Shown here in pieces: positions 15,593 to 42,461 of a stretch of DNA of 61,520 bases. Source of the DNA: a virus. Its lineage: Duplodnaviria; Caudoviricetes. The stretch lies in the IMG/VR virus record IMGVR_UViG_3300036398_003753, positions 1-61,520 of that record; one strand, 5' to 3'. The notes below the pieces were generated by a model that worked only from the letters and a program-made list of their open reading frames with translations, was not told the origin of the DNA and ran no database searches. Position 1 is the stretch's first letter; each line of letters starts with the position of its first letter. The translations under genes were made by a program, and so were the position numbers.

Positions 15593-15922
15593 ATGCCACG
15601 AGTTTTTGTTGTTCAAGAGATGCCGAACCATGATCTGGCTCCTGCCATGAAGTTTGGTGACATGAAGGTCTTGTTGCCTTCATACACCCAGATCGCGTTC
15701 AGCACGTCGCCTACAATCCGCAGCCTGCGACACAAGCTGCGCGATTTCAGCGACAACGATTTCCTGCTGCTTGCAGGGGACCCCGTAGCGATTGGCTTGG
15801 CCTGCTCGATTGCTGCGTTTTTTAACAATGGCCGTTACACAGCGCTGAAGTGGGATCGCCGCGAGCACTTGTATCTTCCCGTCAAGATTGACGTCACCCA
15901 GAAAGGAGAAATCGATGAGTAA
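15593..15922 (+). CDS. Hypothetical phage protein
   Basis: 109 aa, strong RBS, first gene of the operon. Confidence 0.75.
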   Translation: MPRVFVVQEMPNHDLAPAMKFGDMKVLLPSYTQIAFSTSPTIRSLRHKLRDFSDNDFLLLAGDPVAIGLACSIAAFFNNGRYTALKWDRREHLYLPVKIDVTQKGEIDE

Positions 15923-16472
15923 TTTAAATTCCATGTTTGAAGAGGACGCAGGTGCTCTCACCGTCAAGGATGAGGACCTGTCTTCTGTTGCAGCTTTGGC
16001 CAAACGCGCCAAGATGCTGGAAAAAGAGATCGAGGAATTCGAGTCTGTCCTCAAGGAGCGCCAGGAACAATTGCGCAAGATGCAGGAAGAGACACTGCCC
16101 AACATGCTGGCTGAGCTTGGCATGAAGGAATTCACCATGTCGGACGGCAGCAAGATCACTGTCAAGCCTTTTTACTCTGCCTCCATCAAGGAAGAGAACA
16201 GGGCCCAGGCCTACGAATGGCTGCGTGACAACGGCTACGACGACATCATCAAGAACACTGTGTCAGTACGGTTTGGCCGCAACGAGGACAAGCTGTGCGA
16301 GTCACTTTTGAATCAACTGCGCGAGCAAAACTACCCTGTGGAGCAGGCGCAGAAGATCGAGCCCCAGACCCTTAAGGCCTGGGTTCGTGAGCAAACGGAG
16401 CGCGGCACCGCGTTTCCAACAGAACTTTTTGGCGTATTCATTGGCCAAAAAGCGACCATTAAATCAGCCTAA
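15915..16472 (+). CDS. Phage replication-module protein (coiled-coil N-terminus)
   Basis: AAGGAG RBS; WLRDNGYDDIIKN and PQTLKAWVRE motifs. Confidence 0.75.
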   Translation: MSNLNSMFEEDAGALTVKDEDLSSVAALAKRAKMLEKEIEEFESVLKERQEQLRKMQEETLPNMLAELGMKEFTMSDGSKITVKPFYSASIKEENRAQAYEWLRDNGYDDIIKNTVSVRFGRNEDKLCESLLNQLREQNYPVEQAQKIEPQTLKAWVREQTERGTAFPTELFGVFIGQKATIKSA

Positions 16473-16484
16473 AGGAAATCAATC

Positions 16485-17261
16485 ATGAGCAAGAACCAAG
16501 TCGCAGTCAAAGAAGACAAAGAGTACGCAGTTGCATTGGGCAACGCATTTGAAGACGATGCCAACAGTGGCTTCGACGGCATGGGCCAGGAAGACTTTGC
16601 GCTTCCGTTCCTGCGTCTGTTGACCAACACCAGCCCCGAGGTGGGCGAGATTGACGGCGCTCTGCCAGGCATGATCATGAACACTGTTACAGGTGAATTG
16701 CATGATGGCAAAGCAGGCATCATGGTCATCCCCGTGGCCTACGTTCGCCAGTACATCGAGTGGGCCCCACGCGGCTCGGGCAGCGGCGCACCAATCGCTG
16801 TCTACCCTGCAACGTCCGATATCCTCACGCGCACGCACCGCGAACCGGGCGACAGCAAGGACTATCTGGACAACGGCAACTACATCGAGAACACGGCCAA
16901 CCACTACGTGATGGTCATCAACGACAGCGGCATTCCAGAGCCTGCGTTGATCACGATGAAGTCGACACAACTGAAGAAGTCACGCAAGTGGAACAGCATG
17001 TTGATGTCCACCAAGATGATGGGCAAGAACGGCCCGTTCACTCCTCCCATGTACAGCCACCTGTACCGCCTGACATCACAAGCCGAGTCGAATGACAAGG
17101 GCAAGTGGTTTGGTTGGGAAGTGGAAAAGGTTGGTCCAGTGGAAGACATGAACGCCTACACGGCTGCCAAGTCTTTCGCACAGCAGATCAACGCTGGTGA
17201 CGTCAAGGTCAAGCACGAGCACGCAGAAGGCGCTGTAGGCTCGAACGCTGCACCATTCTGA
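16485..17261 (+). CDS. Putative single-stranded DNA-binding protein
   Basis: Upstream of primase; C-terminal PF; NDKGKWFGW motif. Confidence 0.55.
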   Translation: MSKNQVAVKEDKEYAVALGNAFEDDANSGFDGMGQEDFALPFLRLLTNTSPEVGEIDGALPGMIMNTVTGELHDGKAGIMVIPVAYVRQYIEWAPRGSGSGAPIAVYPATSDILTRTHREPGDSKDYLDNGNYIENTANHYVMVINDSGIPEPALITMKSTQLKKSRKWNSMLMSTKMMGKNGPFTPPMYSHLYRLTSQAESNDKGKWFGWEVEKVGPVEDMNAYTAAKSFAQQINAGDVKVKHEHAEGAVGSNAAPF

Positions 17262-27219: not shown

Positions 27220-27314
27220 AACACCTCCATCAGCCAAAAAATCCCTGTCCAGAACCACCACCAGATCGTGAGCATCCCGACCCCGGCCAAAACAAAAAGT
27301 AATTTTTCCTTCAT
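27216..27314 (-). CDS. 32-aa single-TM peptide (not in ORF track)
   Basis: Own translation MKEKLLFVLAGVGMLTIWWWFWTGIFWLMEVL; ATGA overlaps both sides. Confidence 0.6.
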   Translation of the reverse strand: MKEKLLFVLAGVGMLTIWWWFWTGIFWLMEVL

Positions 27315-27637
27315 AGCGATTGCCCCTTCTCCTTACACGGCCACGTTGCACGCAGCAACTCCAAAATCAAAGCATCCGCAGCCAAGTGCCGCCGAGCAGG
27401 TGATCTCTCCAAATACAACTTCGTCATGTCCACCAACTGCCCAGCATTGATTGAGGACGGAGCACAAACCACCGCCCATTGCAACGTGTCCGCCACCCCC
27501 GTCACATACCCAATGGCATTCATCTGCTCCATCTGGGAACTGCTGGTGATCTGCTCGTACAACTTATTCCCAGTCTTGAACTGGGCTTGCGCTGGCAGGA
27601 CCGCGGCCCACGCAGCGAGGATCAGGAATTTCTTCAT
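27311..27637 (-). CDS. Rap1a/Tai-like T6SS immunity-family protein with signal peptide
   Basis: Sec signal ending AQA; TGNKLY...GYVTGVAD...CAP...QL...YL...P..RH..A...L...WPC. Confidence 0.75.
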   Translation of the reverse strand: MKKFLILAAWAAVLPAQAQFKTGNKLYEQITSSSQMEQMNAIGYVTGVADTLQWAVVCAPSSINAGQLVDMTKLYLERSPARRHLAADALILELLRATWPCKEKGQSL

Positions 27638-27855
27638 GGTTGTCCCCTTTCGCGAATGGCATTGGCCAAATTAGTGCAGATAACCTTTCCGTGTGGGCCA
27701 CTGACAAAAGCATCCTCACAAACCTTTGCGCATTCCTCGCGCTCGGCCTGTATGGCCCTTTGCCACGTGCGCAGGAATACGTCCAGCTCCTCGCGGGTCG
27801 GCTCACCCAACATCTGACTGATCTCCAGCCAGGCGGCTTTCATTGCTTCGTTCAT
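27634..27855 (-). CDS. Hypothetical protein (EREACA-motif type)
   Basis: AEREECAKVCE...ANAIRERG. Confidence 0.6.
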   Translation of the reverse strand: MNEAMKAAWLEISQMLGEPTREELDVFLRTWQRAIQAEREECAKVCEDAFVSGPHGKVICTNLANAIRERGQP

Positions 27856-28298
27856 GATTGCCCCTTCAGTGCCAGACCCTTGCTGTGCAAGTATTCCTTG
27901 AGCTCGTTGACCGACTTGCGGCCCAGGTTCGGGACCCTGAGCAGCTGCCACTCCGTCCAGCACACCACATGCTCGTGCATCGTGATGCCCTCGGCATACA
28001 AAGCATTGAGCAGGCGCACCGTGAGCACGCCATCATCAAACGGGGTGACCCCCTTGACCCCGTGGTGCGGCACCCGGCGGTTTTCATAAACCACCACCGT
28101 GTCGTTCTCCACCAAGGGCTGAGGCAAGATGCCCAGCGTGTCGAATACCTCCAGCGACACCAGCTCGTACTGCCGCATGCCCTCGACACGCAGCATCTCC
28201 AACAGGTTTTCCGCCAAAACCTTGTCCGTATAAGCCCGAGGCAACACCCCGGAGCCACTGTTGTCGGCCTCATACCAACGAATTGCATAAATGTTCAT
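27852..28298 (-). CDS. Protein with RNA polymerase alpha-subunit C-terminal domain homologue
   Basis: LTVRLLNALYAEGI...LLRVPNLGRKSVNELKEYL vs RpoA LTVRSANCLKAEAI...LLKTPNLGKKSLTEIKDVL. Confidence 0.85.
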   Translation of the reverse strand: MNIYAIRWYEADNSGSGVLPRAYTDKVLAENLLEMLRVEGMRQYELVSLEVFDTLGILPQPLVENDTVVVYENRRVPHHGVKGVTPFDDGVLTVRLLNALYAEGITMHEHVVCWTEWQLLRVPNLGRKSVNELKEYLHSKGLALKGQS

Positions 28299-28630
28299 TG
28301 CGCATCCTTCCAATCCAAGAATTTCTCGTAACCCTCGTCCCAAGCCCGGTCATCCGCCTCCTCAGCAGCCTGATCCGCGACCCACTCCTCCATCGCCAAA
28401 CGCAACCCGTCATCCAACACCGGGGAAATGTCCACGTTGGAATTGGGCAGATACACGTGGTACAAGGTCCACGTAGCCGGGTAATCAGGCTCCAACTGCT
28501 CACCGAACCTGCTGCGAGCACCGCGCTCCGCGGCCTCGTACTCGAACCAGCAAGCCAGATCAACACCTAACTCGTCACAGGTGTAGCGAAACAGCAACAG
28601 GCCGTCCTTCGTGTGGTCAACAGAAGTCAT
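28295..28630 (-). CDS. Hypothetical acidic protein
   Basis: 111 aa, coupled ORF. Confidence 0.65.
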   Translation of the reverse strand: MTSVDHTKDGLLLFRYTCDELGVDLACWFEYEAAERGARSRFGEQLEPDYPATWTLYHVYLPNSNVDISPVLDDGLRLAMEEWVADQAAEEADDRAWDEGYEKFLDWKDAQ

Positions 28631-29518: not shown

Positions 29519-29734
29519 ATGTTTCAGATTGAGTCGGGCGTAGAGATGCCTGTGGGGCGCACAAAGTACCCCTTTGCTGACATGCATCCAGGGGATTCGA
29601 TCCGTTTTGGCAACGAGAAGCTGGCCAACAGTGCCCGGGTATCGGCCATGCGGTTTGTTCGTGCGCATGCCCCTGATTGGTCGTTTCAGTTACGCCGGGT
29701 TGAGAACGGCTGGCGCTTATGGAGGGTCGCATGA
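29519..29734 (+). CDS. Small putative DNA-binding protein
   Basis: KYPFADMHPGDS...GWRLWRVA; AGGAG RBS. Confidence 0.7.
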   Translation: MFQIESGVEMPVGRTKYPFADMHPGDSIRFGNEKLANSARVSAMRFVRAHAPDWSFQLRRVENGWRLWRVA

Positions 29735-30402
29735 AGCGGGACGTGTGGAACGTGCCGCCTGTCATTGGCAACAAGGCACAAAAGCGCATGTCTGGCCAGG
29801 TAGCGCCCCTGCGTAAGCAAAAGGTCTTGTCTGGCAAGGAGTGGAAGTTCGTCACAGAGCTTGTCACAGGGGATGGCCGGGTGACTTTGAAGGAAGCGGC
29901 CATCAGGGCCGGGTACAAGCCCACAAGCGCATCAGTGATGGCTTGGAAGCTGACAAACCCGGAAATCAATCCTCACGTGGTTTCAGCCATCCAGGCGTAT
30001 CGGGCAGAGCTCAACAGCAAATACAACACCTCGTATGACAGGCACATGCGGGACTTGCAGACCATCCGGGACAAAGCCCTGGAAGCTGGGGCTTATGCTG
30101 CTGCCGTACAGGCAGAATATCGCCGTGGGCAAGCCCTGGGCACAATCTACGTTGATCGCAAGGAAATCAGGCATGGAACAATTGACTCGATGTCCAAAGA
30201 GGAAGTGCAGCGCAAGCTGGATGAGCTGCGCGCCCTGTATGGGGGACCGCCCCCGAGCGCGCTCATTGATGCCAGCACTGGCCAGGTGATCGAAAGTGTC
30301 GAGCGTGAACGGGACCCGGCTTTTGTCTCTCCAGTGGCGGAACCTCCCCCGGATATCTTTGAACGGGACAACGATTTGGGACCCGACGATGACAACGCCT
30401 GA
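29731..30402 (+). CDS. terS: Terminase small subunit
   Basis: KFVTEL...EAAIRAGY HTH; AAAVQAEYRRGQALG; IDSMSKEEV. Confidence 0.75.
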   Translation: MKRDVWNVPPVIGNKAQKRMSGQVAPLRKQKVLSGKEWKFVTELVTGDGRVTLKEAAIRAGYKPTSASVMAWKLTNPEINPHVVSAIQAYRAELNSKYNTSYDRHMRDLQTIRDKALEAGAYAAAVQAEYRRGQALGTIYVDRKEIRHGTIDSMSKEEVQRKLDELRALYGGPPPSALIDASTGQVIESVERERDPAFVSPVAEPPPDIFERDNDLGPDDDNA

Positions 30403-31714: not shown

Positions 31715-32677
31715 ATGGCACATATGATCGACACCACTACAGGCAAGGCCGCCATGGCTTACGCTGGCAATACTCCCTGGCACGGTTTGGGCCAAGCCCT
31801 GACGCCTGATGCATCAATCGAAACATGGACCCGCGAAGCCGGTTTAGATTACACAGTCAAGGAATCCCCCGTACTGTTTCAGACTGACGCGGCCACACTG
31901 CCGGAGGAATTCAAGGGCCGTAAAGTTTTGCACCGCTCAGACACTGGCGGGGCACTGGCTGTAGTGTCTGACGGGTACCGCGTGGTGCAACCAGCTGACG
32001 TTATGGGCTTTTTCGGAAAGCTGGTGGAGCTGGGCGGGTTTCAAATGGAAACCGCCGGAGTGCTCAGCCATGGCCGCCGGGTTTGGGCACTGGCGAAAGT
32101 GAATCAGGGCGCGGATATCGTAGAGGGTGACACCGTGCGCCCTTATGTGCTGCTGGGCACGTCATACGATGGAACAATGGCCACTGTGGCTAAATTCACG
32201 TCAATCCGCGTAGTGTGCAATAACACCATTACCGCGGCATTAGGCCGGGAAAATGCTGGCACTGTTCGAGTGCTGCACTCTGAGCGCTTTAACCCTGACG
32301 CGGTCCGCATGGAGCTGGGCATTGTGGGCGATAACTGGGAGCGGTTTTTGATCCAGTCTCGCAAGCTGGCGGGCGAAAACTTGTCAGCAACTGATGCCGA
32401 TATGTTTGTTCGTTCGCTGCTGCAGCCATACCACACCAGCAAGGTGCCAATGAATGAAACCCGCGGATATAAGCGGATTATGGAATTGTTCAACGGCCAG
32501 GCTATCGGCGCGGATATCCCCGGGGTGTCTGGCACCCGCTGGGCTATGCTCAACGCTGTGACCGAAATGGTGGACCATGAGCGGGGCCGTTCGAACAATA
32601 CCCGCATGGAGTCCGCATGGTTTGGCACTGGCGCGGCCATTAAAAATAAGGCACTGGAGCTGTTAGCTGTTAACTAA
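31715..32677 (+). CDS. DUF932 (phage/plasmid TIGR03299-like) protein
   Basis: TPWHGLG, ETAGVL..GRRVWALA, SYDG...RVVCNNT, TRWAMLNAVTE..DH. Confidence 0.88.
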   Translation: MAHMIDTTTGKAAMAYAGNTPWHGLGQALTPDASIETWTREAGLDYTVKESPVLFQTDAATLPEEFKGRKVLHRSDTGGALAVVSDGYRVVQPADVMGFFGKLVELGGFQMETAGVLSHGRRVWALAKVNQGADIVEGDTVRPYVLLGTSYDGTMATVAKFTSIRVVCNNTITAALGRENAGTVRVLHSERFNPDAVRMELGIVGDNWERFLIQSRKLAGENLSATDADMFVRSLLQPYHTSKVPMNETRGYKRIMELFNGQAIGADIPGVSGTRWAMLNAVTEMVDHERGRSNNTRMESAWFGTGAAIKNKALELLAVN

Positions 32678-32838
32678 TGAAAACCCGGGGCCGATAGTCT
32701 CGGGCTATCGAGTGAAACCATGCGGAAAACTCATGGTTTTTCCCGGTTAGTTGCGGCATGGAGAAACCAGGCCCGCGGTCCCCCTCGCTTTTCCCCTAAA
32801 ACGTGGCGCGCGCCCCGCGCGCCGCGGTCCGTGGGCCA

Positions 32839-32854
32839 TGTTTCACGTGAAACA
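32839..32854. promoter_or_regulatory. parS: parS site (perfect chromosomal consensus) inside a 28-bp palindrome
   Basis: TGTTTCACGTGAAACA within GGGCCATGTTTCACGTGAAACATGGCCC (32833-32860). Confidence 0.85.
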
Positions 32855-32928
32855 TGGCCCGGGCCCCGGGGCTATGGCCCCGGGCGTGGCGATTGATAAA
32901 TTTAATTGGCCGCGGCCCGTGGTGGCCG

Positions 32929-32988
32929 TGCTATAATAGCGGCACTGGTGCGGGGGTCCCCGCACCGGGTAACCTTGAAAGGATAGAG
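32929..32988 (+). promoter_or_regulatory. Early cassette 3
   Basis: TGC-TATAAT, hairpin GGTGCGGG-GGTC-CCCGCACC, GAAAGGATAGAG. Confidence 0.75.
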
Positions 32989-32991
32989 AAA

Positions 32992-33249
32992 ATGCAAATC
33001 GAACAAGTCGCCATGGCCGTGGTCAACGACCCGGCCACCGAACAGGCCCGGCTAATGGCCCTCGCCACCTGGCTCGCTGGCCGGGATAGTGCTGCCGTGC
33101 ATATGCTGCTGATCCCGGTTTTTGCTGAGCTTCGCAAACCGATTTATGAGGGCGTCCAGTTTGACGGGTCGTCATGGCAAGCCGCCGCCCGGGTGCTGGA
33201 TTGGCAGATTGATAACGCTATCGCTGAGCGTGAAGGGGGTGCAGCATGA
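32992..33249 (+). CDS. Hypothetical early protein
   Basis: Start MQIEQV after cassette RBS. Confidence 0.7.
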   Translation: MQIEQVAMAVVNDPATEQARLMALATWLAGRDSAAVHMLLIPVFAELRKPIYEGVQFDGSSWQAAARVLDWQIDNAIAEREGGAA

Positions 33250-33470
33250 TCGAATTCGCCGCCCGTCCTACCGCCGCCCAGATCACCGCCGCCATTAAGC
33301 AGGGCCTGGCCCGGCGAGACCGGGCCATTGAGATTCGCTGGGGGGAAAACTGGATCGAGGTTATCTGGACCCCGCACGGCCTGATCGGGTCCGGGTGGAT
33401 CGGTAAGCACTCGGGGCAAGATATCGCCGAAGATATTGCAAGAAAGTTCCCCGCACTGGTGGAAGCCTGA
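33246..33470 (+). CDS. Hypothetical early protein
   Basis: ATGA coupling; WGENWIE...GSGWIGKHSGQD. Confidence 0.65.
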   Translation: MIEFAARPTAAQITAAIKQGLARRDRAIEIRWGENWIEVIWTPHGLIGSGWIGKHSGQDIAEDIARKFPALVEA

Positions 33471-33523
33471 TATAATAGTGGCACTGGGGCAGCGGCCCCA
33501 GTATCAACCCAGAAAGGATAGAG
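33468..33523 (+). promoter_or_regulatory. Early cassette 4
   Basis: TGA-TATAAT, hairpin ACTGGGGC-AGCG-GCCCCAGT, GAAAGGATAGAG. Confidence 0.75.
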
Positions 33524-33525
33524 TC

Positions 33526-33930
33526 ATGACAAACCCATTCGCACAACACCGCTCAGCCCTGTTCGCGGAGCGCGAGACAATTGACGAAGCTCTCAATTAT
33601 GCCCATGAGGTGCTCGCCTCACTGGTGGGTAGCGACCGCGCTGCTGCCATGACCGCGGTCATGGTGCTGGTCAACACTGCCGCGAAACTCTGGCCTGCAC
33701 CTGTCCAGGCGGATCCGGCCCGTGCCCTACTGGCGGACATTGTCCGCCAAATGGTCGAGGAGACTGTCGGAGATCTCGACTCCAAAATGGACGCGTGGGC
33801 GATGAACTCGCTGGTGTTCGAAGACGCATGCGACAGCCGGGTCGAGCGCTGGATCGAGAATGAGCTAGACATCAGTGACCAGATCGAGAGCGCCATTACG
33901 GAAATGGACCTAGTGGTAAGAGTCCGATAA
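33526..33930 (+). CDS. Hypothetical early protein (acidic C-terminus)
   Basis: Start MTNPFAQ after cassette RBS. Confidence 0.7.
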   Translation: MTNPFAQHRSALFAERETIDEALNYAHEVLASLVGSDRAAAMTAVMVLVNTAAKLWPAPVQADPARALLADIVRQMVEETVGDLDSKMDAWAMNSLVFEDACDSRVERWIENELDISDQIESAITEMDLVVRVR

Positions 33931-33936
33931 AAATAT

Positions 33937-34016
33937 TTGACACGGGGCCAAAACCCCGTGTTATAATAGTCCCACTGTGTCAACCGACACAGTACAACCA
34001 ACCATAGAGGATAGAG
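33937..34016 (+). promoter_or_regulatory. Early cassette 5
   Basis: TTGACA-19-TATAAT (TGn extended), hairpin ACTGTGTC-AACC-GACACAGT, TAGAGGATAGAG. Confidence 0.75.
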
Positions 34017-34019
34017 ACC

Positions 34020-34322
34020 ATGAGCAAGATCATCACAATCGACAGCAGCCGTTACATCCTGCCAGAGGGCATGACCACTAAAGACATTCAAGCATTGGCA
34101 GGCATGCTGATCAGTCTGACTAAGGTGGAGCACTGCTACCTGTACCCCAACTATGACAGCCTGTTTTATGCGGGTGAAGGTGTCCAGGTGGGCGTGAGCA
34201 CTGCTACACTCATGACCAAAGAAGAGGCGAAGGCCAAAAGCGCCGCGAGCCGCGAAGCAGAAGACGCGAAGAAAGCAGCGCAGGCAGCTGGAGATCTGCT
34301 GACAGCGCATGTAGTCAGCTAA
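34020..34322 (+). CDS. Hypothetical early protein
   Basis: 100 aa after cassette RBS. Confidence 0.7.
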   Translation: MSKIITIDSSRYILPEGMTTKDIQALAGMLISLTKVEHCYLYPNYDSLFYAGEGVQVGVSTATLMTKEEAKAKSAASREAEDAKKAAQAAGDLLTAHVVS

Positions 34323-34361
34323 GGCATAGGGGCCACGGCCCCTAGCACACTCTGACCCACT

Positions 34362-34389
34362 CGCCTGTCGCGCCAGCGACAGGCGTTTT
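34362..34389 (+). terminator. Intrinsic terminator closing the early island
   Basis: CGCCTGTCGC-GCCA-GCGACAGGCG-TTTT; a second hairpin at 34327-34344. Confidence 0.75.
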
Positions 34390-34647
34390 CCCCGAATTTT
34401 TTCCCTCAAATGGTGGTGGCGGGGGTGGGTGGGCCCGCCTTACCTCTACGTGTGTATCTATCTATGACTTTCAGACAGGGGGAGGGCCATAAACAACCCG
34501 TCAGTAATAGAGATCAACCTATGTCCTATTTCTGCCCCAGATTTTGTCCAGGAAAACTTGACCCCCCCCACCCCCTAAAACAGGCCCCCTTGTTTTCAAA
34601 ACGCCAACCCCGGGTTAGTATTCGCAAAATTCAAAACCTGGTCCACG

Positions 34648-36117
34648 ATGCACAACACTTTGCCCAAAGATGCCGAAGAAGAAATGCTGCGCCTGCAACT
34701 GCGGCTCCAGCTCCTCGAGGCGCACGAAAAGTCCACCAATAACTTCCTGGACTTCTGCCGTTTTGTCTGGCCCGAAATGCTTGTTGGGGAACACCACCGC
34801 ATCATCGCGAAAGCCCTTGACCGAGTCATCTCTGGCGAATGCAAACGCTTGATGATTGCGATGCCTCCCCGGCACGGTAAGTCACAAATGGGCAGCTATC
34901 TGTTTCCTGCTTACGTCATGGGGAAAAAACCCGACGCCAAGCTGATCGTCGGCTCGCACACCGCGGAGCTCGCTCAACGCTTCGGTCGTATGATCCGAAA
35001 CCTCGTGGACGACGAGAAGTACAAAGAGCTCTTCCCTGGCATGCAGCTGTCCATTGACTCCAAGGCTGCTGGTCGGTGGAACACGGCCCAAGGCGGTGAA
35101 GCCTTCTTCATTGGTAAGGGCGGCGCGATGACCGGGCGCGGCGGTAATATTGTCATCTTGGACGACATCTTGGACGAACAGGACGCTCTGTCTGACACGG
35201 CCATGGAGAACACGTGGGAGTGGTACACCTCTGGTCCTCGTCAGCGATTGCAGCCAGGCGGCGCGATCATTGTGATCAACACCCGTTGGAAGACAGACGA
35301 CCTCTCTGGCCGCCTGTTGAAACAGCAGGGATACCTGAAGTCTGATCAGTGGGAAGTGCTGGAGTTCCCTGCAATCCTTCCCAGCAACAAACCCCTCTGG
35401 CCAGAGTATTGGCCGATTGAGGAACTGGAGAAGGTCAAGGTCTCCATTGGTCTGAAGAAGTGGAACGCCCAGTGGCAGCAGCAACCCACGAACGACGAAG
35501 GTGCTGTCTTGAAGCGCAACTGGTGGCGCAAGTGGACACACGACGATCCGCCGTACTGTGAATACATGCTGCAGACCATGGACACGGCGTACTCCAAAAA
35601 GGAGACCGCCGACTTCTCGGTCATCGCAACGTGGGGCGTGTTCACCCCTGATGCTGACTCGGGCCCCAACCTCATCTTGCTGAACGTGCGCAAGGGTCGC
35701 TGGGATTTCCCGGAACTGAAAAGAGTCGCGCGCGACGAGTACCAGTATTGGAAGCCCGATAACGTCCTGATCGAGGCCAAGGCCACCGGCACGCCACTCC
35801 AGCAGGAACTCCGCCGGATCGGGGTCCCCGTCACGATGTACTCTCCTGGCGGAAGGCGGGCCGGGCAGGATAAGCTGGCACGTGCGAACGCGGTTGCACC
35901 TCTGTTGGAATCGGGCATGGTTTGGTATCCCGAGGGCAAGGAATGGGCCGAGGAGCTTGTTGAGGAATGCGCGGCCTTTCCCAACGGTGCCAATGATGAC
36001 CAGGTGGACGTTACGACAATGGCTTTGGCCAGATTCCGTCAGGGCAACTTTGTTGCTTTGGACTCGGACGACAACGACGAGCCGGAGCCATCAACCGAGG
36101 CGGTTGAGTATTATTGA
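34648..36117 (+). CDS. terL: Terminase large subunit
   Basis: MPPRHGKS Walker A, ILDD Walker B, DTAYS...ADFS, IEAKATG, NDDQVD. Confidence 0.96.
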   Translation: MHNTLPKDAEEEMLRLQLRLQLLEAHEKSTNNFLDFCRFVWPEMLVGEHHRIIAKALDRVISGECKRLMIAMPPRHGKSQMGSYLFPAYVMGKKPDAKLIVGSHTAELAQRFGRMIRNLVDDEKYKELFPGMQLSIDSKAAGRWNTAQGGEAFFIGKGGAMTGRGGNIVILDDILDEQDALSDTAMENTWEWYTSGPRQRLQPGGAIIVINTRWKTDDLSGRLLKQQGYLKSDQWEVLEFPAILPSNKPLWPEYWPIEELEKVKVSIGLKKWNAQWQQQPTNDEGAVLKRNWWRKWTHDDPPYCEYMLQTMDTAYSKKETADFSVIATWGVFTPDADSGPNLILLNVRKGRWDFPELKRVARDEYQYWKPDNVLIEAKATGTPLQQELRRIGVPVTMYSPGGRRAGQDKLARANAVAPLLESGMVWYPEGKEWAEELVEECAAFPNGANDDQVDVTTMALARFRQGNFVALDSDDNDEPEPSTEAVEYY

Positions 36118-36161
36118 CAGCGGGACTAAAATGGCCCATCTTCTCTCACGGACCACGAACC

Positions 36162-39100
36162 ATGTCCCAAGAACTGTCTGACAAGATCCGTGCTGCTGCG
36201 CAGGCCAAGAACATTGATCCAGATGTGGCTTTGGCTATTGCAAGGGCGGAGAGTGCGCTCAAGCCCACGGCCAAGGCCAAGACGTCCACTGCGGGTGGAT
36301 TGTTTCAGGTGGTGGATGACACGTGGAAGGAGTTTGGTGGAAAGCCTGGCAAGAAGTTTGATGCGGATGAGAACATTCGTGTGGGCACGGATGTCATTGC
36401 AAAGAACGCGCAGACACTTAAGAGTTTCCTGAACCGCGATCCGCGGCCCGCGGAAATCTACGCAGCCCACTACTTCGGCCCCACTGGGGCGAAGAACTTT
36501 TTGTCTGCGGAGCCTGGCACGCCGATGGAGAAGATTTTTTCGGAAAAGGTGATCAGGGCCAATCCGAACTTAAAGGGCAAGACCTCTGATCAGGTGATGG
36601 CTCAACTGGAAACCAAGATGGGTGGACGCCCTGCTGCCCCCACTGTTTCACGTGAAACATCCGAGCCTCCCGCAAGAAAACCTCTGCCCCCTTCTTTGCC
36701 TCCAATGGCTGCCGCTCCGATGAAGGAGCAGGTTGCAAGTCTTGGCCCGGGCTACCAAGCAGCGCTGGCTCTGTCCTTCCTGTCGGACTCGGATGACAAG
36801 CCTGAGCGGGACGTGGAAAAGGAACCGGGGATCGCGGAGCAGTGGCTGGCGCAAACCGCAACGCGGCCCTCGGTCATGGCGCAGTTCACTGACCTGAGTA
36901 TCAAATCCCCGTTTGCCGAACCCCAGCAGCCTCAGATGCTGGCTGATGGCGGGGAGGTCAAGGAGCCTGGCTTGCTATCGGTGCCGACATATTCCAGGAC
37001 GGTGAGCTACGAAATGTACCCTGGGCAGGAAGGGCAGTTTGATCAACGCGACGCGGCCCGGCATATGCTGGCTTCTGGCACGTTGGCTCGCAAATATGGC
37101 CCCACTGCGGCGGAGATGATGGGCAAAATGCATGAGATCGGCACGTCGCCGCTCAAATTCCTGGGCTCCAAGCTGGGTATTTCCGAGATGCCAGTGGATT
37201 ATGAGCAGGATTTGCACAACAACCGCATCGGGATTGAGCTGGCCAGGCGCTCCAAGAGTCAAAAGGACTTGGAAGATTTGGTCCAACAGATGGCGGAGCA
37301 AGCTCGGGGTCAGCGCACAGAGGGAAAACCTTGGACAGGACGCCCTGTTCGCCGCGCGGACGGCGGTTCGGCAGAGCCAACCCCTGAGGAAATCGCTGCG
37401 GCAAGCCGTCCGGCCACTGTCAACCCCAATATTCAGCGCCAAGGCGAGGCTGCCAGGAGACTGGCAGCGATGCGGGACGTAAATACACTGCCCGATCCAC
37501 GTACCTATGCCGCTGTTTCCGGATTTTTGGGCCAAGCACCGGACGAAATGGGTTTTTCTGCCCTGCATCCGGACCGTGAGGGCATAAAAAGGGCGGGGCA
37601 AGCTGGTTTTGGCATTGGAACCGCGCTCCAAGTCGCTCCAATCGTGGGCGGAGCGATGAAATTGGCCAACATCGGACCGAGTTCCGGGGGTAGAACCACT
37701 GCGGCGCAACAATTAGGCGCTGTTCGCACGCGGGGCACGCCTCTTATGATGGGTTATGGGAACACGCGGGGCCCGGATGGGGCATTGCCTTCCATGAACC
37801 AGGCCGAACAGTACGTCAAAAACGAAATTGCCATAACTGGCGACCCAAAATTAAACGATTGGCTCTCAAATAGGGTGACGTCCTACCTGCGCCGGGATTT
37901 TGCCACTCCGGACGACCAGTTTGTCAAGGCTGCGGACGCCAATCAGCTGCTACATTTCGTAAATAAGCCAACAAAGCGCGTTGACTTGGACCCATATTAC
38001 GAAAGAATTGAAAACATGTCGGTTGACGTGGGCAGCTTGCCGTATGTGCGTAAAACTCAAGGTTTTAACCCACAGGGTGAGGCTACAACCGCATATGGCA
38101 AGCGGGTGGAAGACTTGACGGATGCCTCAGCGTGGCCCGTGGAGCTTCAAGACATAACCTCACCAGGGTTGATTCCTCCCAGCATGCGCAACATGGTAGA
38201 AACCAATCCATCAGCACGGTTGACGGAGCTTGGGACAAACATTGACGAGACGTTGCAGCTTGATCAGTTGGCAATCGATATGGACAAGATGCGCAGAATG
38301 CCTAAAACCTATTCTGTCTATTCCCAGCCCCCTGTAAAAGTTCCTGAGGAATACATGCTCACAGACGAAGCATTGACGGGGCTCACTCTTGCACAGGCAT
38401 CAAACCGGGTGGCAAAGTTTAAGAACTGGGAAGAACAGACCCGGCTTAATATGGCATCTAGGGCCCTCTTCGAGGACCCTTCTATCAGCCGGACGCCCGC
38501 AGGAGATAAAAGTGTTTGGGTGAATCCAGCAGATTTGCAGGAAAACCCAGCCATGCTTAAACTGGTTACCGATGTGGGCTGCGATGGCGGCTGGTGCACC
38601 AAAGGTGAAACCTATGCTCTGTCTTATGGTAGCGGAGAAAACCGTTTATCCATTTTGATGGACAGCAAGGCGCGCCCCCAGGCACAGATAACGATCACCA
38701 CCAAGCAGTACACCCCAGACGAGTTTATAGCGTCCATGGCAGATGATGAGGTCGTTGCGTTCCGGGCAAAATATCCTGATATTGCCGCGTATCAGACGGA
38801 TGCGATTGCTCGCACGCCAGAGTTCCGCCAGTGGCAGTCGATGAACCCGGACGGTCTTTCAATTACCGAAATCAAAGGCGTCAACAACCAGACGGATTTG
38901 ACAGACGCTCCGTACCTCAAGCAAGTTCAGCAACGAGTCAAGGATCTTGATTCTATGAATGGTTTGCAAAGTGTGGAGAACTTGGATGGAATCAACATGA
39001 CGGATCTGACTAGCCGGTTGTACGGCCATCCGTCTATTGCAAACCGACCCCGAGTCACGAAAGAGGACATGAAGTCAATTCTTGACGAAGCCGCTCGCCT

Positions 39101-39245
39101 TAACGGCGGCAGCCGTTATATTGAAAACGAGAAAAACAAAATTGATCCGCTTTTCCAGCAAGCTGCTGATAACATCCTGGGACCTGAAAAGCGCGCCACA
39201 GGTGGTATGGTAGAGCGCCGCTCGGACGATCGCAAATACCTGTAA
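36162..39245 (+). CDS. Multidomain protein: lytic transglycosylase, DUF6973-like module, PcfJ-like module, C-terminal tag
   Basis: ARAES...AGGLFQ...YAAHYFG (SLT); DAARH...HE...DLHNN.IG; GGWCTKG...EIKGVNN; modules bounded by ADGG/ATGG. Confidence 0.7.
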   Translation: MSQELSDKIRAAAQAKNIDPDVALAIARAESALKPTAKAKTSTAGGLFQVVDDTWKEFGGKPGKKFDADENIRVGTDVIAKNAQTLKSFLNRDPRPAEIYAAHYFGPTGAKNFLSAEPGTPMEKIFSEKVIRANPNLKGKTSDQVMAQLETKMGGRPAAPTVSRETSEPPARKPLPPSLPPMAAAPMKEQVASLGPGYQAALALSFLSDSDDKPERDVEKEPGIAEQWLAQTATRPSVMAQFTDLSIKSPFAEPQQPQMLADGGEVKEPGLLSVPTYSRTVSYEMYPGQEGQFDQRDAARHMLASGTLARKYGPTAAEMMGKMHEIGTSPLKFLGSKLGISEMPVDYEQDLHNNRIGIELARRSKSQKDLEDLVQQMAEQARGQRTEGKPWTGRPVRRADGGSAEPTPEEIAAASRPATVNPNIQRQGEAARRLAAMRDVNTLPDPRTYAAVSGFLGQAPDEMGFSALHPDREGIKRAGQAGFGIGTALQVAPIVGGAMKLANIGPSSGGRTTAAQQLGAVRTRGTPLMMGYGNTRGPDGALPSMNQAEQYVKNEIAITGDPKLNDWLSNRVTSYLRRDFATPDDQFVKAADANQLLHFVNKPTKRVDLDPYYERIENMSVDVGSLPYVRKTQGFNPQGEATTAYGKRVEDLTDASAWPVELQDITSPGLIPPSMRNMVETNPSARLTELGTNIDETLQLDQLAIDMDKMRRMPKTYSVYSQPPVKVPEEYMLTDEALTGLTLAQASNRVAKFKNWEEQTRLNMASRALFEDPSISRTPAGDKSVWVNPADLQENPAMLKLVTDVGCDGGWCTKGETYALSYGSGENRLSILMDSKARPQAQITITTKQYTPDEFIASMADDEVVAFRAKYPDIAAYQTDAIARTPEFRQWQSMNPDGLSITEIKGVNNQTDLTDAPYLKQVQQRVKDLDSMNGLQSVENLDGINMTDLTSRLYGHPSIANRPRVTKEDMKSILDEAARLNGGSRYIENEKNKIDPLFQQAADNILGPEKRATGGMVERRSDDRKYL
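36644..36659. promoter_or_regulatory. parS: Second perfect parS site, embedded in a CDS linker
   Basis: TGTTTCACGTGAAACA encoding (T)VSRET. Confidence 0.8.
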
Positions 39246-40040
39246 GGACGCCCCATGGCAACGTCGCCCGCAGAAAAATTCCTGGACCCCGACTCCCTTA
39301 TGGGGCTGATGAGGGAAGGCACAAATCCTAGAAGGATGGTTCCCCTTCAGCCGCAGGAAATGCCGTCCTCTGCGGCAGGCCTGCCCTCATTGCGGGTGTT
39401 TCAGGACCCGTCCCTTGCAAACACAAACACGCACGGGTACATCATGGGTGGTCCGCACCGTGGGGAAAACGAAATTAAAAACCGGGGCATGGCCCAGGCG
39501 GTTTTCGTAGGCAAGAAAGATGATCAGCCGACGATTGCCCACGAAGCAGAGCACTTGCTGGCACGCCAGAACCTTGGGCATCCGTCCAAGATCAATACCA
39601 AGTTTGATGAGCTGACAGGGGACAAAGGCCTTCGCGGGGTCTTCGTATCGGAGGCCATCAAGATAGCCCCTTATTTGCAGAAGAAGTACGGAATGGATTC
39701 CGGCTACTTCTCCAAGGAGATGGCGAATTTCCAAGGCTCGCGGGCCAGGAACCTGCTGTATGAGCAGCTGGCTGAACTGTCCGCGTTGGAGCAGATCCAC
39801 AAAGTAGACTTGACTAAGGACCCGGAGCTGCGCAAAACCCTGTTCAAGTCCCCCGCGGTCCGCGAAGCGTACAACGCAATCACTGGTCTACGGCAGACTC
39901 GACTGGACCCGCGCGACCTGCCCCCATATACTCGTCAACCTGAGCCCGGCGTAACAGATAAACTTAAAAAGCTGATGGGCTTTGCTGATGGCGGCGCTGT
40001 CGAGCGCCAGACGGCTGATCACCGCAAATACCTGTAAGGA
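39231..40040 (+). repeat. 18-bp direct repeat CGCAAATACCTGTAAGGA at 39231-39248 and 40023-40040
   Basis: Identical copies covering RKYL, the stop codon and the next RBS. Confidence 0.85.
39255..40037 (+). CDS. HExxH (zincin-like) protein with the same C-terminal tag as the upstream gene
   Basis: TIAHEAEHLL, downstream YEQLAE; ends FADGGAVERQTADHRKYL. Confidence 0.6.
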   Translation: MATSPAEKFLDPDSLMGLMREGTNPRRMVPLQPQEMPSSAAGLPSLRVFQDPSLANTNTHGYIMGGPHRGENEIKNRGMAQAVFVGKKDDQPTIAHEAEHLLARQNLGHPSKINTKFDELTGDKGLRGVFVSEAIKIAPYLQKKYGMDSGYFSKEMANFQGSRARNLLYEQLAELSALEQIHKVDLTKDPELRKTLFKSPAVREAYNAITGLRQTRLDPRDLPPYTRQPEPGVTDKLKKLMGFADGGAVERQTADHRKYL

Positions 40041-40046
40041 ACAAAG

Positions 40047-42461
40047 ATGCCAATCGAGAAAAACAACGACCTGCCTGCGGGCAATATGGATGTTGAAGTT
40101 GAGGATGTCGTAACAGAGGATCTGCCCGACATCGAAATCACCTTTGACCCCGAAGGTGGCGTTGAGGTAGCGCTGGGCGAAGAGGATGACGAGGTTCCGT
40201 TCGATGCCAACCTTGCCGAGGTCCTCGATCCGGGCGTCTTGCAGCAGATCAGCTCAGAGCTCATGCCCCTGTTTGAAGCAGACCAGTCTTCGCGCAAGGA
40301 TTGGGAAGAGCAGTACGGCAAGGGCCTCAAACTCTTGGGCTTTACGTTTGATGAGCGCACCAAGCCGTTCAAAGGCGCAGCCGCGGCCACCCATCCATTG
40401 CTGACTGAGGCGATCGTGCAGTTCCAGGCGCAGGCGCTCAAGGAATTGCTGCCTGCAGGCGGTCCTGTGCGCACACAAGTGCTGGGCAAGGAAACACGCG
40501 AGAAGTTGATGCAAGCCGATCGCGTGCGCGACTTCATGAACTACCAAATCACCACGGTGATGGAAGAGTACACGCCTGACTTTGATCAGCTCTTGTTCTA
40601 CGTGGGCTACGGCGGCTCTGCGTTCAAGAAAGTGTATTACGACGAGGACAAGGGCCGCATGGTCAGCAAGCTGATCCTGCCTGACAATCTGTACATCCCC
40701 TACAACGGTTCGAGCGTCATGAGCGAGTGCCCTCGCATCACGCACGTCGTGCCGATGACGGTGAATGACTACAACAAAGCCGTGCTGCGTGGCCAGTACC
40801 TGGACACCGCGCAAGAGCGCAGCACTGCTGACGTTGGCAACAACATCATCCAGAAAGAAACCGACCGCGTCACCAAGATCAGCCCCAACGCTGATGACGA
40901 GGAAATGGAACTGCTGGAGTTCCAAGTCGATTGGGATTTGCAGGGCTTCGAGCACACCAATGATGATGGCGAGCCCACAGGCATTCGACTGCCCTACATC
41001 ATCACTGTGGACAGAACCTCTGGCTCCACAGTGGGCGTGCGCCGCAACTGGAAGGAAGGCGACGAACTGTACCGCCGCAAGCAGTACTACGTGCACTACA
41101 CCCTCGTGCAAGGCCTGGGCGCGTATGGCTTGGGCTTCTTGCATTTGGTGGGCGGCCTCAGCCAATCCGCCACTTCCGCACTGCGCCAACTGATCGACGC
41201 AGGCACTCTGGTCAACCTGCCAGCGGGTTTCAAGGCCAAGGGCGCGCGCATCATGAACGACGATGTGCCGCTGCAGCCAGGCGAGTTCCGCGACATTGAC
41301 GCAGGTGGTGTGGAGTTGACTCAGACGCTGATGCCGCTGCCCTACAAGGAGCCAAGCCAGACTCTGTTCGCGCTGCTTGGTTTTTGTGCCGATGCGGGTC
41401 GCCGCTTGGCCAGTGTTACCGACATGCAGGTGGGCGACAGCAACCAAAACGCTGCTGTGGGCACAACGATCGCGTTGCTGGAAAAGGGCGGGCAGGTCAT
41501 GTCCGCGATCCACAAGCGCTTGCACTATGCGCAGAAGATCGAGTTCTCTCTGTTGGCCAAGGGCTTCTCCGAGAACCTGCCTGACGAGTACCCCTACGAC
41601 GTACCCGGCGAGAGCCGCACCGTCAAGCGCAAGGACTTCGATGACCGCATCGACGTACTGCCTGTTTCTGACCCCAACATTTTCTCTGTTGCTCAGCGCA
41701 TCACCATGGCGCAGACCCAGCTGCAACTGGCGCAGAGCAACCCCCAGATGCACAACATGTATGAGGCCTACCGCCGCATGTACGAAGCCATCGGGGTGCG
41801 GGATATTGACGGCATCCTGAACACGCAGAACGTGGACAAGCCAAAGGACCCTGCCAGCGAAAACTCGCAGGCATTGGACGGTTCGCCGCTCAAGGCCTTT
41901 GCTGGCCAGCAGCACGACGCCCACATCATGTCGCACCTGATGTTTGGCATGTCACCCATGCTGGCAAGCATGCCTCAGGTCGCTGTCAACCTGCAAAAGC
42001 ACATCTTCGAGCACATTCGCCTCAAGGCGGAAGAGGCTACCGAGGCAGAGTTGTTCCAGCAGTACGGCACAGACCCGGACAAGATCGTGTCTGCCCTGCA
42101 GCGCGAGGCGATGATCGCTATCAAGAGCACCGAGTTCTACCAAGAGGCCAAGCAAATGCAGACGCAGCTGGAAGGTCCTCCACCGGAAGATCCATTGGTC
42201 AAGGTCAAGGAGCAGGAAATCCAGGCCAAGGCCGCTGCCGATCAGGCCAAGGACCAAAACGAAAAAGCACGCATCCAACTGGACGGCATGCGTGTGCAGG
42301 GCGACCTTGCACTGGACCAGGCCAAGCTATCCCTGGATGCCCAAAAACTGCAGCAGCAAGGAGTCAAAGATGCAAGCCAAGCCAACCAAAACGCCCAAAA
42401 CGCCCGCCTCCAAGCGATTACCCGGGCCCAAAAAGGTGGCAACCCCAGCCGACAAACCTAA
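40047..42461 (+). CDS. Portal protein
   Basis: 804 aa; HPLLTEAIVQFQAQA, GSAFKKVYYD, NLPAGFKAKG; between terL and head genes. Confidence 0.88.
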   Translation: MPIEKNNDLPAGNMDVEVEDVVTEDLPDIEITFDPEGGVEVALGEEDDEVPFDANLAEVLDPGVLQQISSELMPLFEADQSSRKDWEEQYGKGLKLLGFTFDERTKPFKGAAAATHPLLTEAIVQFQAQALKELLPAGGPVRTQVLGKETREKLMQADRVRDFMNYQITTVMEEYTPDFDQLLFYVGYGGSAFKKVYYDEDKGRMVSKLILPDNLYIPYNGSSVMSECPRITHVVPMTVNDYNKAVLRGQYLDTAQERSTADVGNNIIQKETDRVTKISPNADDEEMELLEFQVDWDLQGFEHTNDDGEPTGIRLPYIITVDRTSGSTVGVRRNWKEGDELYRRKQYYVHYTLVQGLGAYGLGFLHLVGGLSQSATSALRQLIDAGTLVNLPAGFKAKGARIMNDDVPLQPGEFRDIDAGGVELTQTLMPLPYKEPSQTLFALLGFCADAGRRLASVTDMQVGDSNQNAAVGTTIALLEKGGQVMSAIHKRLHYAQKIEFSLLAKGFSENLPDEYPYDVPGESRTVKRKDFDDRIDVLPVSDPNIFSVAQRITMAQTQLQLAQSNPQMHNMYEAYRRMYEAIGVRDIDGILNTQNVDKPKDPASENSQALDGSPLKAFAGQQHDAHIMSHLMFGMSPMLASMPQVAVNLQKHIFEHIRLKAEEATEAELFQQYGTDPDKIVSALQREAMIAIKSTEFYQEAKQMQTQLEGPPPEDPLVKVKEQEIQAKAAADQAKDQNEKARIQLDGMRVQGDLALDQAKLSLDAQKLQQQGVKDASQANQNAQNARLQAITRAQKGGNPSRQT

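What the first reader, a model, noticed from the sequence alone, without database searches (positions are those of the whole stretch)
32833..36659. Two perfect chromosomal parS sites in a phage lacking ParA/ParB: candidate hijack of host segregation
Seen: TGTTTCACGTGAAACA at 32839-32854 (intergenic, within a 28-bp perfect palindrome) and at 36644-36659 (in a protein linker), 3.8 kb apart on either side of terL. One copy is expected about 1e-5 times in 61.5 kb at uniform composition. No ParA, ParB or integrase is recognisable. Known: this is the widespread chromosomal parS consensus that loads ParB-CTP clamps, which spread and recruit ParA and SMC. Inference: the phage borrows host ParABS/SMC to position or segregate its DNA as an episome, titrate ParB and stall the host cell cycle, bridge genome ends, or modulate neighbouring early promoters by spreading.
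Basis: partly seen in the sequence, partly recalled or inferred. Interest (0 to 1): 0.9.

Follow-up and report, generated by a model that had tools for sequence, protein, structure and literature searches.

The report
Host centromere sites kept beside phage terminase
A lake-water phage with no partition genes carries two exact copies of the bacterial chromosome "centromere" (parS) on either side of its DNA-packaging gene, and its relatives preserve these sites letter for letter, so the phage very probably makes the host's ParB protein sit on its DNA, a trick so far shown by experiment only for Bacillus phage phi29.

Summary
Exact TGTTTCACGTGAAACA lies at 32839-32854 (tip of a 28-bp palindrome, intergenic) and at 36644-36659 (linker of a 1043-aa transglycosylase protein), flanking terL; 0 of 100 shuffles give two. 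The window is a whole 61.5-kb virus record with no ParB, ParA or integrase match.

The coding copy is under DNA-level selection. It is present in 42 of 73 related loci. It is always read V-S/P-R-E/G-T with the same codons, and the base before it is always T although that residue varies. It is the best-conserved third-position window of about 400 in two clades. Changes fall only at positions 5 and 12, giving the three variants also seen at the centromeres of the candidate host family, where 35 of 41 genomes have 1-4 sites.

Sites turn over among five positions, all within about 4.5 kb of terL.

Best reading: these are loading sites for host ParB. The purpose (persistence or positioning, control of late genes, ParB titration) is not settled.

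This is a new variant of the phi29 precedent (PMC2731898). Earlier notes of this scan report similar orphan parS sites on other phages, including a relative of this one.

The parts
32839..32854 (.). parS copy 1, exact TGTTTCACGTGAAACA, intergenic, about 165 nt after the DUF932 stop
   Evidence: A site at the same place in L003, L005 and L014.
32833..32860 (.). Perfect 28-bp palindrome that extends copy 1; tip of a 12-bp hairpin in a strongly structured GC-rich spacer (32678-32991)
   Evidence: Read. RNA fold of the spacer: -164.4 kcal/mol, z = -5.3, 0 of 100 shuffles as stable. The arms differ in relatives.
36644..36659 (.). parS copy 2, exact, inside a gene, read as (T)VSRET in a linker
   Evidence: Conserved in 42 of 73 related loci with fixed codons.
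36114..39245 (+). 1043-aa virion or ejection-type protein (SLT transglycosylase, DUF6973) that hosts copy 2 in its first linker
   Evidence: Pfam and PHROGs. The N-terminal 330 residues are only about 27-35% identical to many relatives that keep the site.
34648..36117 (+). terL, the gene round which all parS positions of the family cluster
   Evidence: Terminase_6N/6C, phrog_38 E = 4.6e-113. Positions of sites relative to terL.
34585..34647 (+). terL promoter-like leader; in six relatives a parS sits here between the -10 box and the ATG, but the window lacks that insert
   Evidence: Window sequence compared with L010, L027, L036 and L040. 6 of 80 loci have it. The promoter itself is read by eye and was not found by the consensus scan.

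Best explanation
The two 16-mers are working nucleation sites for the host's chromosomal ParB. After injection, host ParB-CTP clamps load at them and spread. Each phage genome then carries one partition-type complex centred on terL, although the phage encodes no ParB or ParA.

Shown here: the sites are kept by selection on the DNA itself; they vary only as natural parS sites do; they are identical to the centromere variants of the candidate host family; they cluster; and the phage lacks partition genes.

Inferred: that ParB binds, and what follows from it. My preferred outcome is coupling to the host ParA/SMC apparatus. Phage genomes would then be positioned and handed on in infected cells that do not lyse at once (carrier state or slow growth), which would be the non-sporulating counterpart of phi29's Spo0J-dependent trapping in spores. 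That last step is weaker than the first. I put about 0.75 on ParB loading and about 0.3 on this particular outcome.
For: 1. Two exact sites, against 0.03 expected.

2. Related phages: 227 TerL relatives were confirmed in IMG/VR, the best 80 were kept, and 3 MAG contigs were added. Of the 73 loci with at least 1000 nt after terL, 42 carry TGTTNCACGTGNAACA in the homologous linker. Many of them do so although this protein is only about 27-35% identical to the window's.

3. Selection acts on the DNA. All 51 coding sites (42 distinct contexts) use GTT-TCA/CCA-CGT-GAA/GGA-ACA. The preceding codon varies (GAT 19, AAT 15, ACT 4, AGT 2, GTT 1, CCT 1) but always ends in T. Codon usage of the same genes gives about 5e-4 for this spelling.

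4. Of 131 six-frame V[SP]R[EG]T peptides (both strands counted), 122 are spelled by parS and 2 by a one-mismatch derivative.

5. In two clades taken whole, the six-codon window at parS ranks 1 of 401 and 1 of 397 for third-position conservation, and it stands between indel-rich flanks.

6. Among all hits with up to 2 mismatches, every change but one (L013) is at position 5 or 12. The asymmetric variant TGTTCCACGTGAAACA (14 of 42 contexts) breaks hairpin pairing, which speaks for protein recognition and against RNA structure.

7. The same three variants occur as 1-4 clustered sites in 35 of 41 genomes of the family of the Rhodoferax MAG that holds a relative. In 4 of 5 genomes checked they lie 1.7-7.3 kb from parB.

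8. Sites turn over but stay local. There are five positions round terL and none elsewhere in 5 near-complete relatives.

9. No ParB, ParA or integrase. No gene co-occurs with parS.

10. Precedent: phi29 has five parS sites and uses host Spo0J (passages of PMC2731898).
Against: Binding was not tested. The host is unknown. The only host clues are three short MAG contigs (Burkholderiaceae, Rhodoferax, Crocinitomicaceae), and binning of phage contigs is unreliable. The paper on the nearest named phage predicts Pseudomonas for it (passages of PMC10611076).

The trait can be lost. 31 of 73 loci lack it, as do one complete relative (G006), a 77%-complete one (G009) and DSL-LC04.

Nothing in the genome points to a persistent state. 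There is no integrase, no plasmid replicon and no recognised repressor, and the replication genes are of the lytic kind (PolA, primase, helicases). No integrated or episomal copy was seen in the genome collection.

The steady placement beside terL is not predicted by a pure partition role.

The TerL tree needs at least 5 gains or losses, so many counts are not independent events.
Confidence: 0.6

Rival explanations
1. Control of packaging and late genes by host ParB (copy-number timer). ParB sitting on and spreading from sites at the head of the late operon damps terL and late transcription while there are few phage genomes. Replication multiplies parS, titrates ParB and lifts the block.
For: In 6 of 80 loci the site lies in the roughly 25-nt leader between a promoter-like -10 box and the terL ATG. 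In a sister lineage (TerL 50-55% identical), 7 of 23 TerL-bearing loci have it within 200 nt upstream of terL, against 0.85 expected, at varied positions relative to the -10 box; 19 of 23 have a site upstream of terL. All five positions in the family lie within about 4.5 kb of terL. Earlier scan notes report parS at terminase promoters in unrelated phages (leads only).
Against: The best-conserved copy lies 430-545 nt beyond the end of terL, inside the next gene, not at a promoter. The window itself lacks the leader copy. From my own knowledge, not checked here, chromosomal ParB is a weak silencer. The seven sister-lineage cases may be a single inherited event. The promoters are read by eye; the consensus scan found only one weak site in 32500-36800, no more than in shuffles.
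Confidence: 0.15
2. ParB (and SMC) sponge. Replicating phage genomes soak up host ParB, dissolve the host partition complexes and stall host segregation or division, to the phage's benefit.
For: The phage carries 1-3 sites per genome, against only 1-4 on candidate host chromosomes, so a few dozen phage copies would outnumber them. No phage partner protein is needed.
Against: A sponge should gain from more sites placed anywhere. Here most relatives keep one or two: of 44 loci that span the region, 14 have one and 11 have two. They are always in the same small region.
Confidence: 0.12
3. The palindrome is read by a phage protein or used in a phage DNA transaction (a pac or origin element, or a TerS site), and only resembles parS.
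For: It lies next to the packaging genes and, for copy 1, in a palindrome-dense spacer. The terS candidate lies 4.2 kb upstream, so the packaging site is unmapped.
Against: The match to the host site is 16 of 16, and the same tolerated variants occur. No ParB-type HTH was found. The only window gene present in all three complete parS+ relatives and absent from all three parS- ones is 39255-40037. In the larger sample it shows no link: 14 of 37 parS+ loci have it, against 9 of 25 parS- loci. Many family members package without any such site.
Confidence: 0.08
4. No DNA function: the conservation reflects a protein motif (VSRET), an mRNA hairpin, or chance.
For: The nearby linker peptide (…EPLPPSLPPMA) is also conserved as protein. 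A palindrome can fold in RNA.
Against: The codons are fixed, and the third base of the variable preceding codon is fixed too. 122 of 131 such peptides are spelled by parS. Further copies lie in non-coding DNA and in another reading frame (FHVK) at the terL leader. The asymmetric variant breaks the pairing. 0 of 100 shuffles give two sites.
Confidence: 0.03

Closest known systems
Host-type parS sites of virulent Bacillus phages phi29 and Nf, used through host Spo0J (ParB)
   Same: A phage counted as lytic, without its own partition genes, carries chromosomal-type parS sites that are read by the host's ParB homologue. I saw passages of PMC2731898, which cite Meijer et al. 2005; I did not see that paper.
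   Different: phi29 has five sites on a 19-kb protein-primed genome (the size and replication mode are recalled, not from a call), and the known purpose is trapping the genome in the spore. Here the host is probably a non-sporulating Gram-negative lake bacterium. There are 1-3 sites, all beside terL, and the main one is embedded in a coding sequence. The purpose is unknown.
Chromosomal ParABS centromeres (parS clusters next to parAB)
   Same: The 16-bp sequence is identical, the variants at positions 5 and 12 are the same, and the sites occur in small clusters within a few kb. ParB spreading and the roles of ParA and SMC are as reviewed in PMC7333895 (passages).
   Different: The sites are on a virus, with no parA or parB beside them and no origin context.
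Own ParABS cassettes of plasmid prophages (P1, N15; extrachromosomal mycobacteriophages, PMC7157519, search listing only)
   Same: A phage genome carries a centromere.
   Different: Those phages encode their own ParA and ParB and have their own specific sites. This one encodes neither, so it is not a member.
Orphan host-type parS on other ParB-less phages noted earlier in this scan (actinophage arrays, crAss-like, Clostridia phages)
   Same: The same 16-mer and the same lack of ParB. Several notes place it before the terminase genes.
   Different: These are unchecked AI notes on unrelated phages. Here the evidence rests on synonymous-site conservation across a large family.

Membership tests
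Chromosomal-type parS (ParB nucleation site) | 16-bp palindrome matching TGTTNCACGTGNAACA | tested here: met
   Two exact matches. The form of the consensus is recalled; the same pattern was found at candidate-host centromeres.
Chromosomal-type parS (ParB nucleation site) | Kept by selection on the DNA sequence, with variation confined to tolerated positions | tested here: met
Chromosomal-type parS (ParB nucleation site) | Specific binding and CTP-dependent loading of ParB | not testable with these tools
   Needs EMSA or BLI, or ChIP-seq.
Chromosomal-type parS (ParB nucleation site) | A cognate ParB is available in the cell | tested here: inconclusive
   35 of 41 genomes of the candidate host family have such sites, and 5 of 5 checked have ParB above the cut-off. 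The host assignment rests on 3 MAG contigs.
Self-contained phage or plasmid ParABS partition cassette (P1/N15 type) | Element-encoded ParB | tested here: not met
   No PF02195, TIGR00180 or PF17762 match at E<=10 in six frames.
Self-contained phage or plasmid ParABS partition cassette (P1/N15 type) | Element-encoded ParA ATPase | tested here: not met
   No PF13614 or PF01656 match at E<=10.
phi29-type use of host ParB by a virulent phage | Phage without partition or lysogeny genes that carries host-type parS | tested here: met
   Gene content is of the lytic type.
phi29-type use of host ParB by a virulent phage | Host ParB-dependent segregation of the phage genome into a dormant cell (spore) | not testable with these tools
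   The candidate hosts (Burkholderiales, from MAG titles) do not form spores (own knowledge). An analogous carrier state is inference.

The most novel reading that the evidence does not exclude
Host centromere sites placed at the head of the packaging and late operon are a general device of tailed phages. The host's ParB pool is used as a counter of phage genome copies: few genomes, ParB-covered terL region, no packaging; many genomes, ParB diluted, late genes and packaging released. The same complex keeps the genome in arrested cells. This would make ParB a host factor for phage developmental timing in abundant freshwater phages.
Probability: 0.13. Interest if true: 0.85.

Novelty: new variant of a known kind. 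Interest (0 to 1): 0.6.

Why it matters
If host ParB loads on these genomes, an abundant and widespread group of lake phages depends on the host's chromosome-segregation machinery. The stretch was found in contigs of 24 lake-water runs, 12 of which may be the source. At least 227 TerL relatives are in IMG/VR. Such dependence is known by experiment only for phi29 in sporulating Bacillus.

The case is unusually easy to test. The main site lies in a coding linker, so it can be destroyed by synonymous changes without touching the protein. Natural relatives with 0, 1, 2 or 3 sites exist.

The steady placement beside terL, also seen in two more distant TerL lineages, hints at a link between ParB and packaging or late-gene control that no current model of ParABS or of phage development includes.

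Four full-text searches found no paper describing orphan host parS sites in phages of Gram-negative bacteria. The ParABS review read in passages has no occurrence of the word 'phage'.

Tried and rejected
- **Co-occurring binder gene.** All window ORFs were compared with three complete parS+ relatives and three parS- relatives. Only 39255-40037 fitted the pattern, and it failed in 62 loci: 14 of 37 parS+ against 9 of 25 parS-.
- **Another palindrome in the loci without parS.** No shared one was found in the 31 loci without the coding site that have at least 1000 nt downstream of terL.
- **Half-site enrichment.** None.
- **Genome ends and population variants from public runs.** All 24 runs are kept only as contigs. 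Laying four of them gave short unitigs. The 'skip' 32861->36639 (one contig, side 22) and the loose ends at 32837/32838/32855 most simply come from contigs that share only the parS letters. No ends could be read and nothing is concluded.
- **Integrated or episomal copies.** The genome collection gave only 3 short MAG contigs.
- **GenBank phages.** 5 weak hits. The nearest, DSL-LC04, has no site with up to 1 mismatch.
- **Rfam and tRNA.** Nothing.
- **Not used.** Structure prediction, complex prediction, the protein atlas and the large protein searches. None would show DNA binding by a host protein.
- **Supplements.** Supplements of PMC10611076 (its ORF and host tables) were not opened; they may hold annotations of the DSL-LC04 homologues.
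- **Papers not held.** Livny et al. 2007 (PMC2168934) is not held, so what I say of natural parS variation is partly recalled.


Full report
**What is there**

The window is one complete IMG/VR virus record of 61,520 bases (linear, CheckV 100%). Exact TGTTTCACGTGAAACA occurs at 32839-32854 and at 36644-36659. Nothing else matches within two mismatches, the expectation is 0.03, and 0 of 100 shuffles reach two.

Copy 1 is the centre of a perfect 28-bp palindrome (32833-32860). It lies in a GC-rich, strongly structured 314-nt spacer (z = -5.3) after a DUF932 gene. Copy 2 is read as VSRET in a Pro/Ala-rich linker of a 1043-aa protein, between its SLT transglycosylase domain and DUF6973. terL (34648-36117) lies between the two copies, and the portal gene follows at 40047.

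The rest of the genome looks like a lytic short-tailed phage:
- replication and recombination genes: PolA, UvrD-type and SNF2 helicases, AEP primase, PD-(D/E)XK exonuclease;
- virion genes: SU10-type adaptors, capsid, large virion proteins;
- others: GroES and a lysozyme.

Six-frame HMM searches at E<=10 found no ParB_N, TIGR00180, HTH_ParB, AAA_31, CbiA or tyrosine integrase. The controls ring in 11-14 of 14 genomes. There are no Rfam families and no tRNAs.

**Is it more than chance, and at which level is it conserved?**

TerL has 227 confirmed relatives in IMG/VR, of which the best 80 were fetched, and 3 more lie on MAG contigs. Of the 73 loci with at least 1000 nt after terL, 42 carry TGTTNCACGTGNAACA 430-650 nt after the terL stop, in the homologous linker. 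In many of them the N-terminal part of that protein is only about 27-35% identical to the window's.

- All 51 such sites (42 distinct contexts) are read V-S/P-R-E/G-T and use the same codons.
- The residue before the site varies (D, N, T, S, V, P), but its codon always ends in T.
- From the codon usage of these genes, this spelling has a probability of about 5e-4.
- Of 131 six-frame occurrences of the peptide (each palindrome counts on both strands), 122 are spelled by the parS pattern, 2 by the one-mismatch site of L013 and 7 otherwise.
- For two TerL clades taken whole, not picked by motif, I aligned the genes by codon. The six-codon window at parS ranks first of 401 and first of 397 for third-position conservation. 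It is an island between indel-rich flanks.
- Among all hits within two mismatches, every change but one lies at position 5 or 12. The common asymmetric form TGTTCCACGTGAAACA (14 of 42 contexts) would break a hairpin.

So the constraint is on double-stranded DNA read by a protein. It is not on the peptide and not on an RNA fold.

**Distribution and turnover**

On a TerL tree the trait fills two well-supported clades. The window's clade has 11 of 13 scorable rows. Its two exceptions are L013, with a one-mismatch site, and L010, with a site before terL instead. The other clade has 30 of 30 scorable rows. One isolated row also has the trait. The tree needs at least 5 changes, of which 3 are forced by strongly supported branches, and 0 of 500 label shuffles do as well.

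Besides the main linker site, the family shows four other positions:
- about 165-185 nt after the DUF932 stop (window, L003, L005, L014);
- in the short leader between a promoter-like -10 box and the terL ATG (6 of 80 loci), where it looks like a roughly 19-nt insert that the window lacks;
- 90 nt beyond the main site (L059, L062);
- about 1150-1175 nt after terL, read as VPRGT (7 loci).

Of the 44 loci that span -2500 to +1500 round terL, 25 have a site: 14 have one and 11 have two. In five near-complete relatives the only sites in the whole record are these. A complete relative (G006), a 77%-complete one (G009) and GenBank phage DSL-LC04 have none. The loci without a site have no substitute palindrome. 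The sites are therefore gained, lost and moved, but always within about 4.5 kb of terL.

**Beyond the family**

With a TerL profile built from the loci, 23 of the 117 fetched loci hold a TerL of this superfamily.

In the group with TerL 50-55% identical to the window's, seven loci have the site 25-144 nt upstream of terL. For all 23 loci that is 7 observed against 0.85 expected. 19 of 23 have a site upstream of terL. Two distant loci (TerL about 25-27% identical) carry arrays of five. These cases may share ancestry, so they are not seven independent events. In those loci the site stands either downstream of the -10 box or just upstream of the promoter (read by eye).

**Host**

The only cellular records with a relative are three short MAG contigs: Burkholderiaceae, Rhodoferax and Crocinitomicaceae. 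This is weak evidence, because phage contigs are often mis-binned. The paper on DSL-LC04 predicts Pseudomonas for that phage (passages of PMC10611076).

Still, in the family of the Rhodoferax MAG, 35 of 41 genomes have 1-4 clustered sites of exactly the three variants seen in the phages. 5 of 5 checked genomes have a ParB above the cut-off, and in four of them it lies 1.7-7.3 kb from the cluster. The stretch is present in contigs of 24 lake-water runs, 12 of which may be the source.

**How it most likely works**

The simplest account is that host ParB nucleates at these sites. On established knowledge (review PMC7333895, passages), ParB-CTP clamps would then spread over the neighbouring kilobases, engage ParA and recruit SMC.

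What the phage gains is inferred. I prefer positioning and inheritance of the genome in infected cells that do not lyse promptly, by analogy with phi29. Its five parS sites and host Spo0J serve to trap the genome in spores (passages of PMC2731898). The clustering of sites into one zone, as at chromosomal centromeres, fits a single partition complex better than it fits a sponge.

The constant nearness to terL, and the leader and promoter positions in relatives, keep a regulatory reading alive: ParB occupancy damps terL and late genes until replication dilutes ParB. A sponge effect on host segregation is also possible. A phage-encoded reader is unlikely, because there is no ParB-type fold and no gene co-occurs with the sites.

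**Novelty**

Host-type parS on a phage without par genes is known for phi29 and Nf. Four full-text searches found nothing comparable for phages of Gram-negative bacteria. A 2025 survey deals with orphan ParB proteins, not orphan sites (passages of PMC12704722).

Earlier notes of this scan list many similar orphan sites on other phages, several of them before terminase genes. One first-reader note concerns a relative of this phage and reports the same VPRET-coding copy. I used these notes as leads only.

What is new here:
- a large, abundant freshwater family;
- a site embedded in a coding sequence and held by synonymous-site selection;
- turnover among positions that all adjoin terL.

I class it as a new variant of a known kind, with interest 0.6.

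Noticed in passing
window 32678-32991: The spacer after the DUF932 gene is packed with GC-rich hairpins (RNA fold -164 kcal/mol, z = -5.3). parS copy 1 is the tip of one of them. The role of the others (terminators, RNA stabilisers, a DNA site) is unknown.
   Followed up: partly
window 29719-30402 versus 34648: The only small-terminase candidate (phrog_51, E = 3e-8) lies 4.2 kb upstream of terL. An HNH or nuclease-like gene, DUF7227, DUF932 and several small self-promoted genes lie between them. The order is conserved across the family.
   Followed up: partly
window 39255-40037: A 260-aa gene between the transglycosylase protein and the portal is present in only some relatives (23 of 62 loci that reach the portal). 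Its presence is not linked to parS.
   Followed up: yes
window 27311-28343, minus strand: A Rap1a-type T6SS immunity protein (27311-27637) and a protein with an RNA polymerase alpha C-terminal domain (27852-28343) lie in the early leftward block. Neither has a match in the complete relatives compared, except Rap1a in G005 and DSL-LC04.
   Followed up: no
L109 and L148 (IMG/VR loci): Phages with a TerL only 25-27% identical to the window's carry arrays of five exact parS sites within 0.4-1.5 kb upstream of terL.
   Followed up: partly
L094, L108 (IMG/VR loci): Other viral contigs hold four exact parS sites in two pairs about 35 nt apart. They were not examined for their own ParB.
   Followed up: no
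window 15888-17261: Pam3 gp33-like and gp34-like proteins (families named after a cyanophage) lie in the replication module. DSL-LC04 annotates the first homologue as a DNA-ends-protecting protein.
   Followed up: no
window 32837-32855: Contigs of lake metagenomes that match only the parS letters and then run on into unlike sequence pile up at copy 1. They probably come from other genomes carrying the same site.
   Followed up: no
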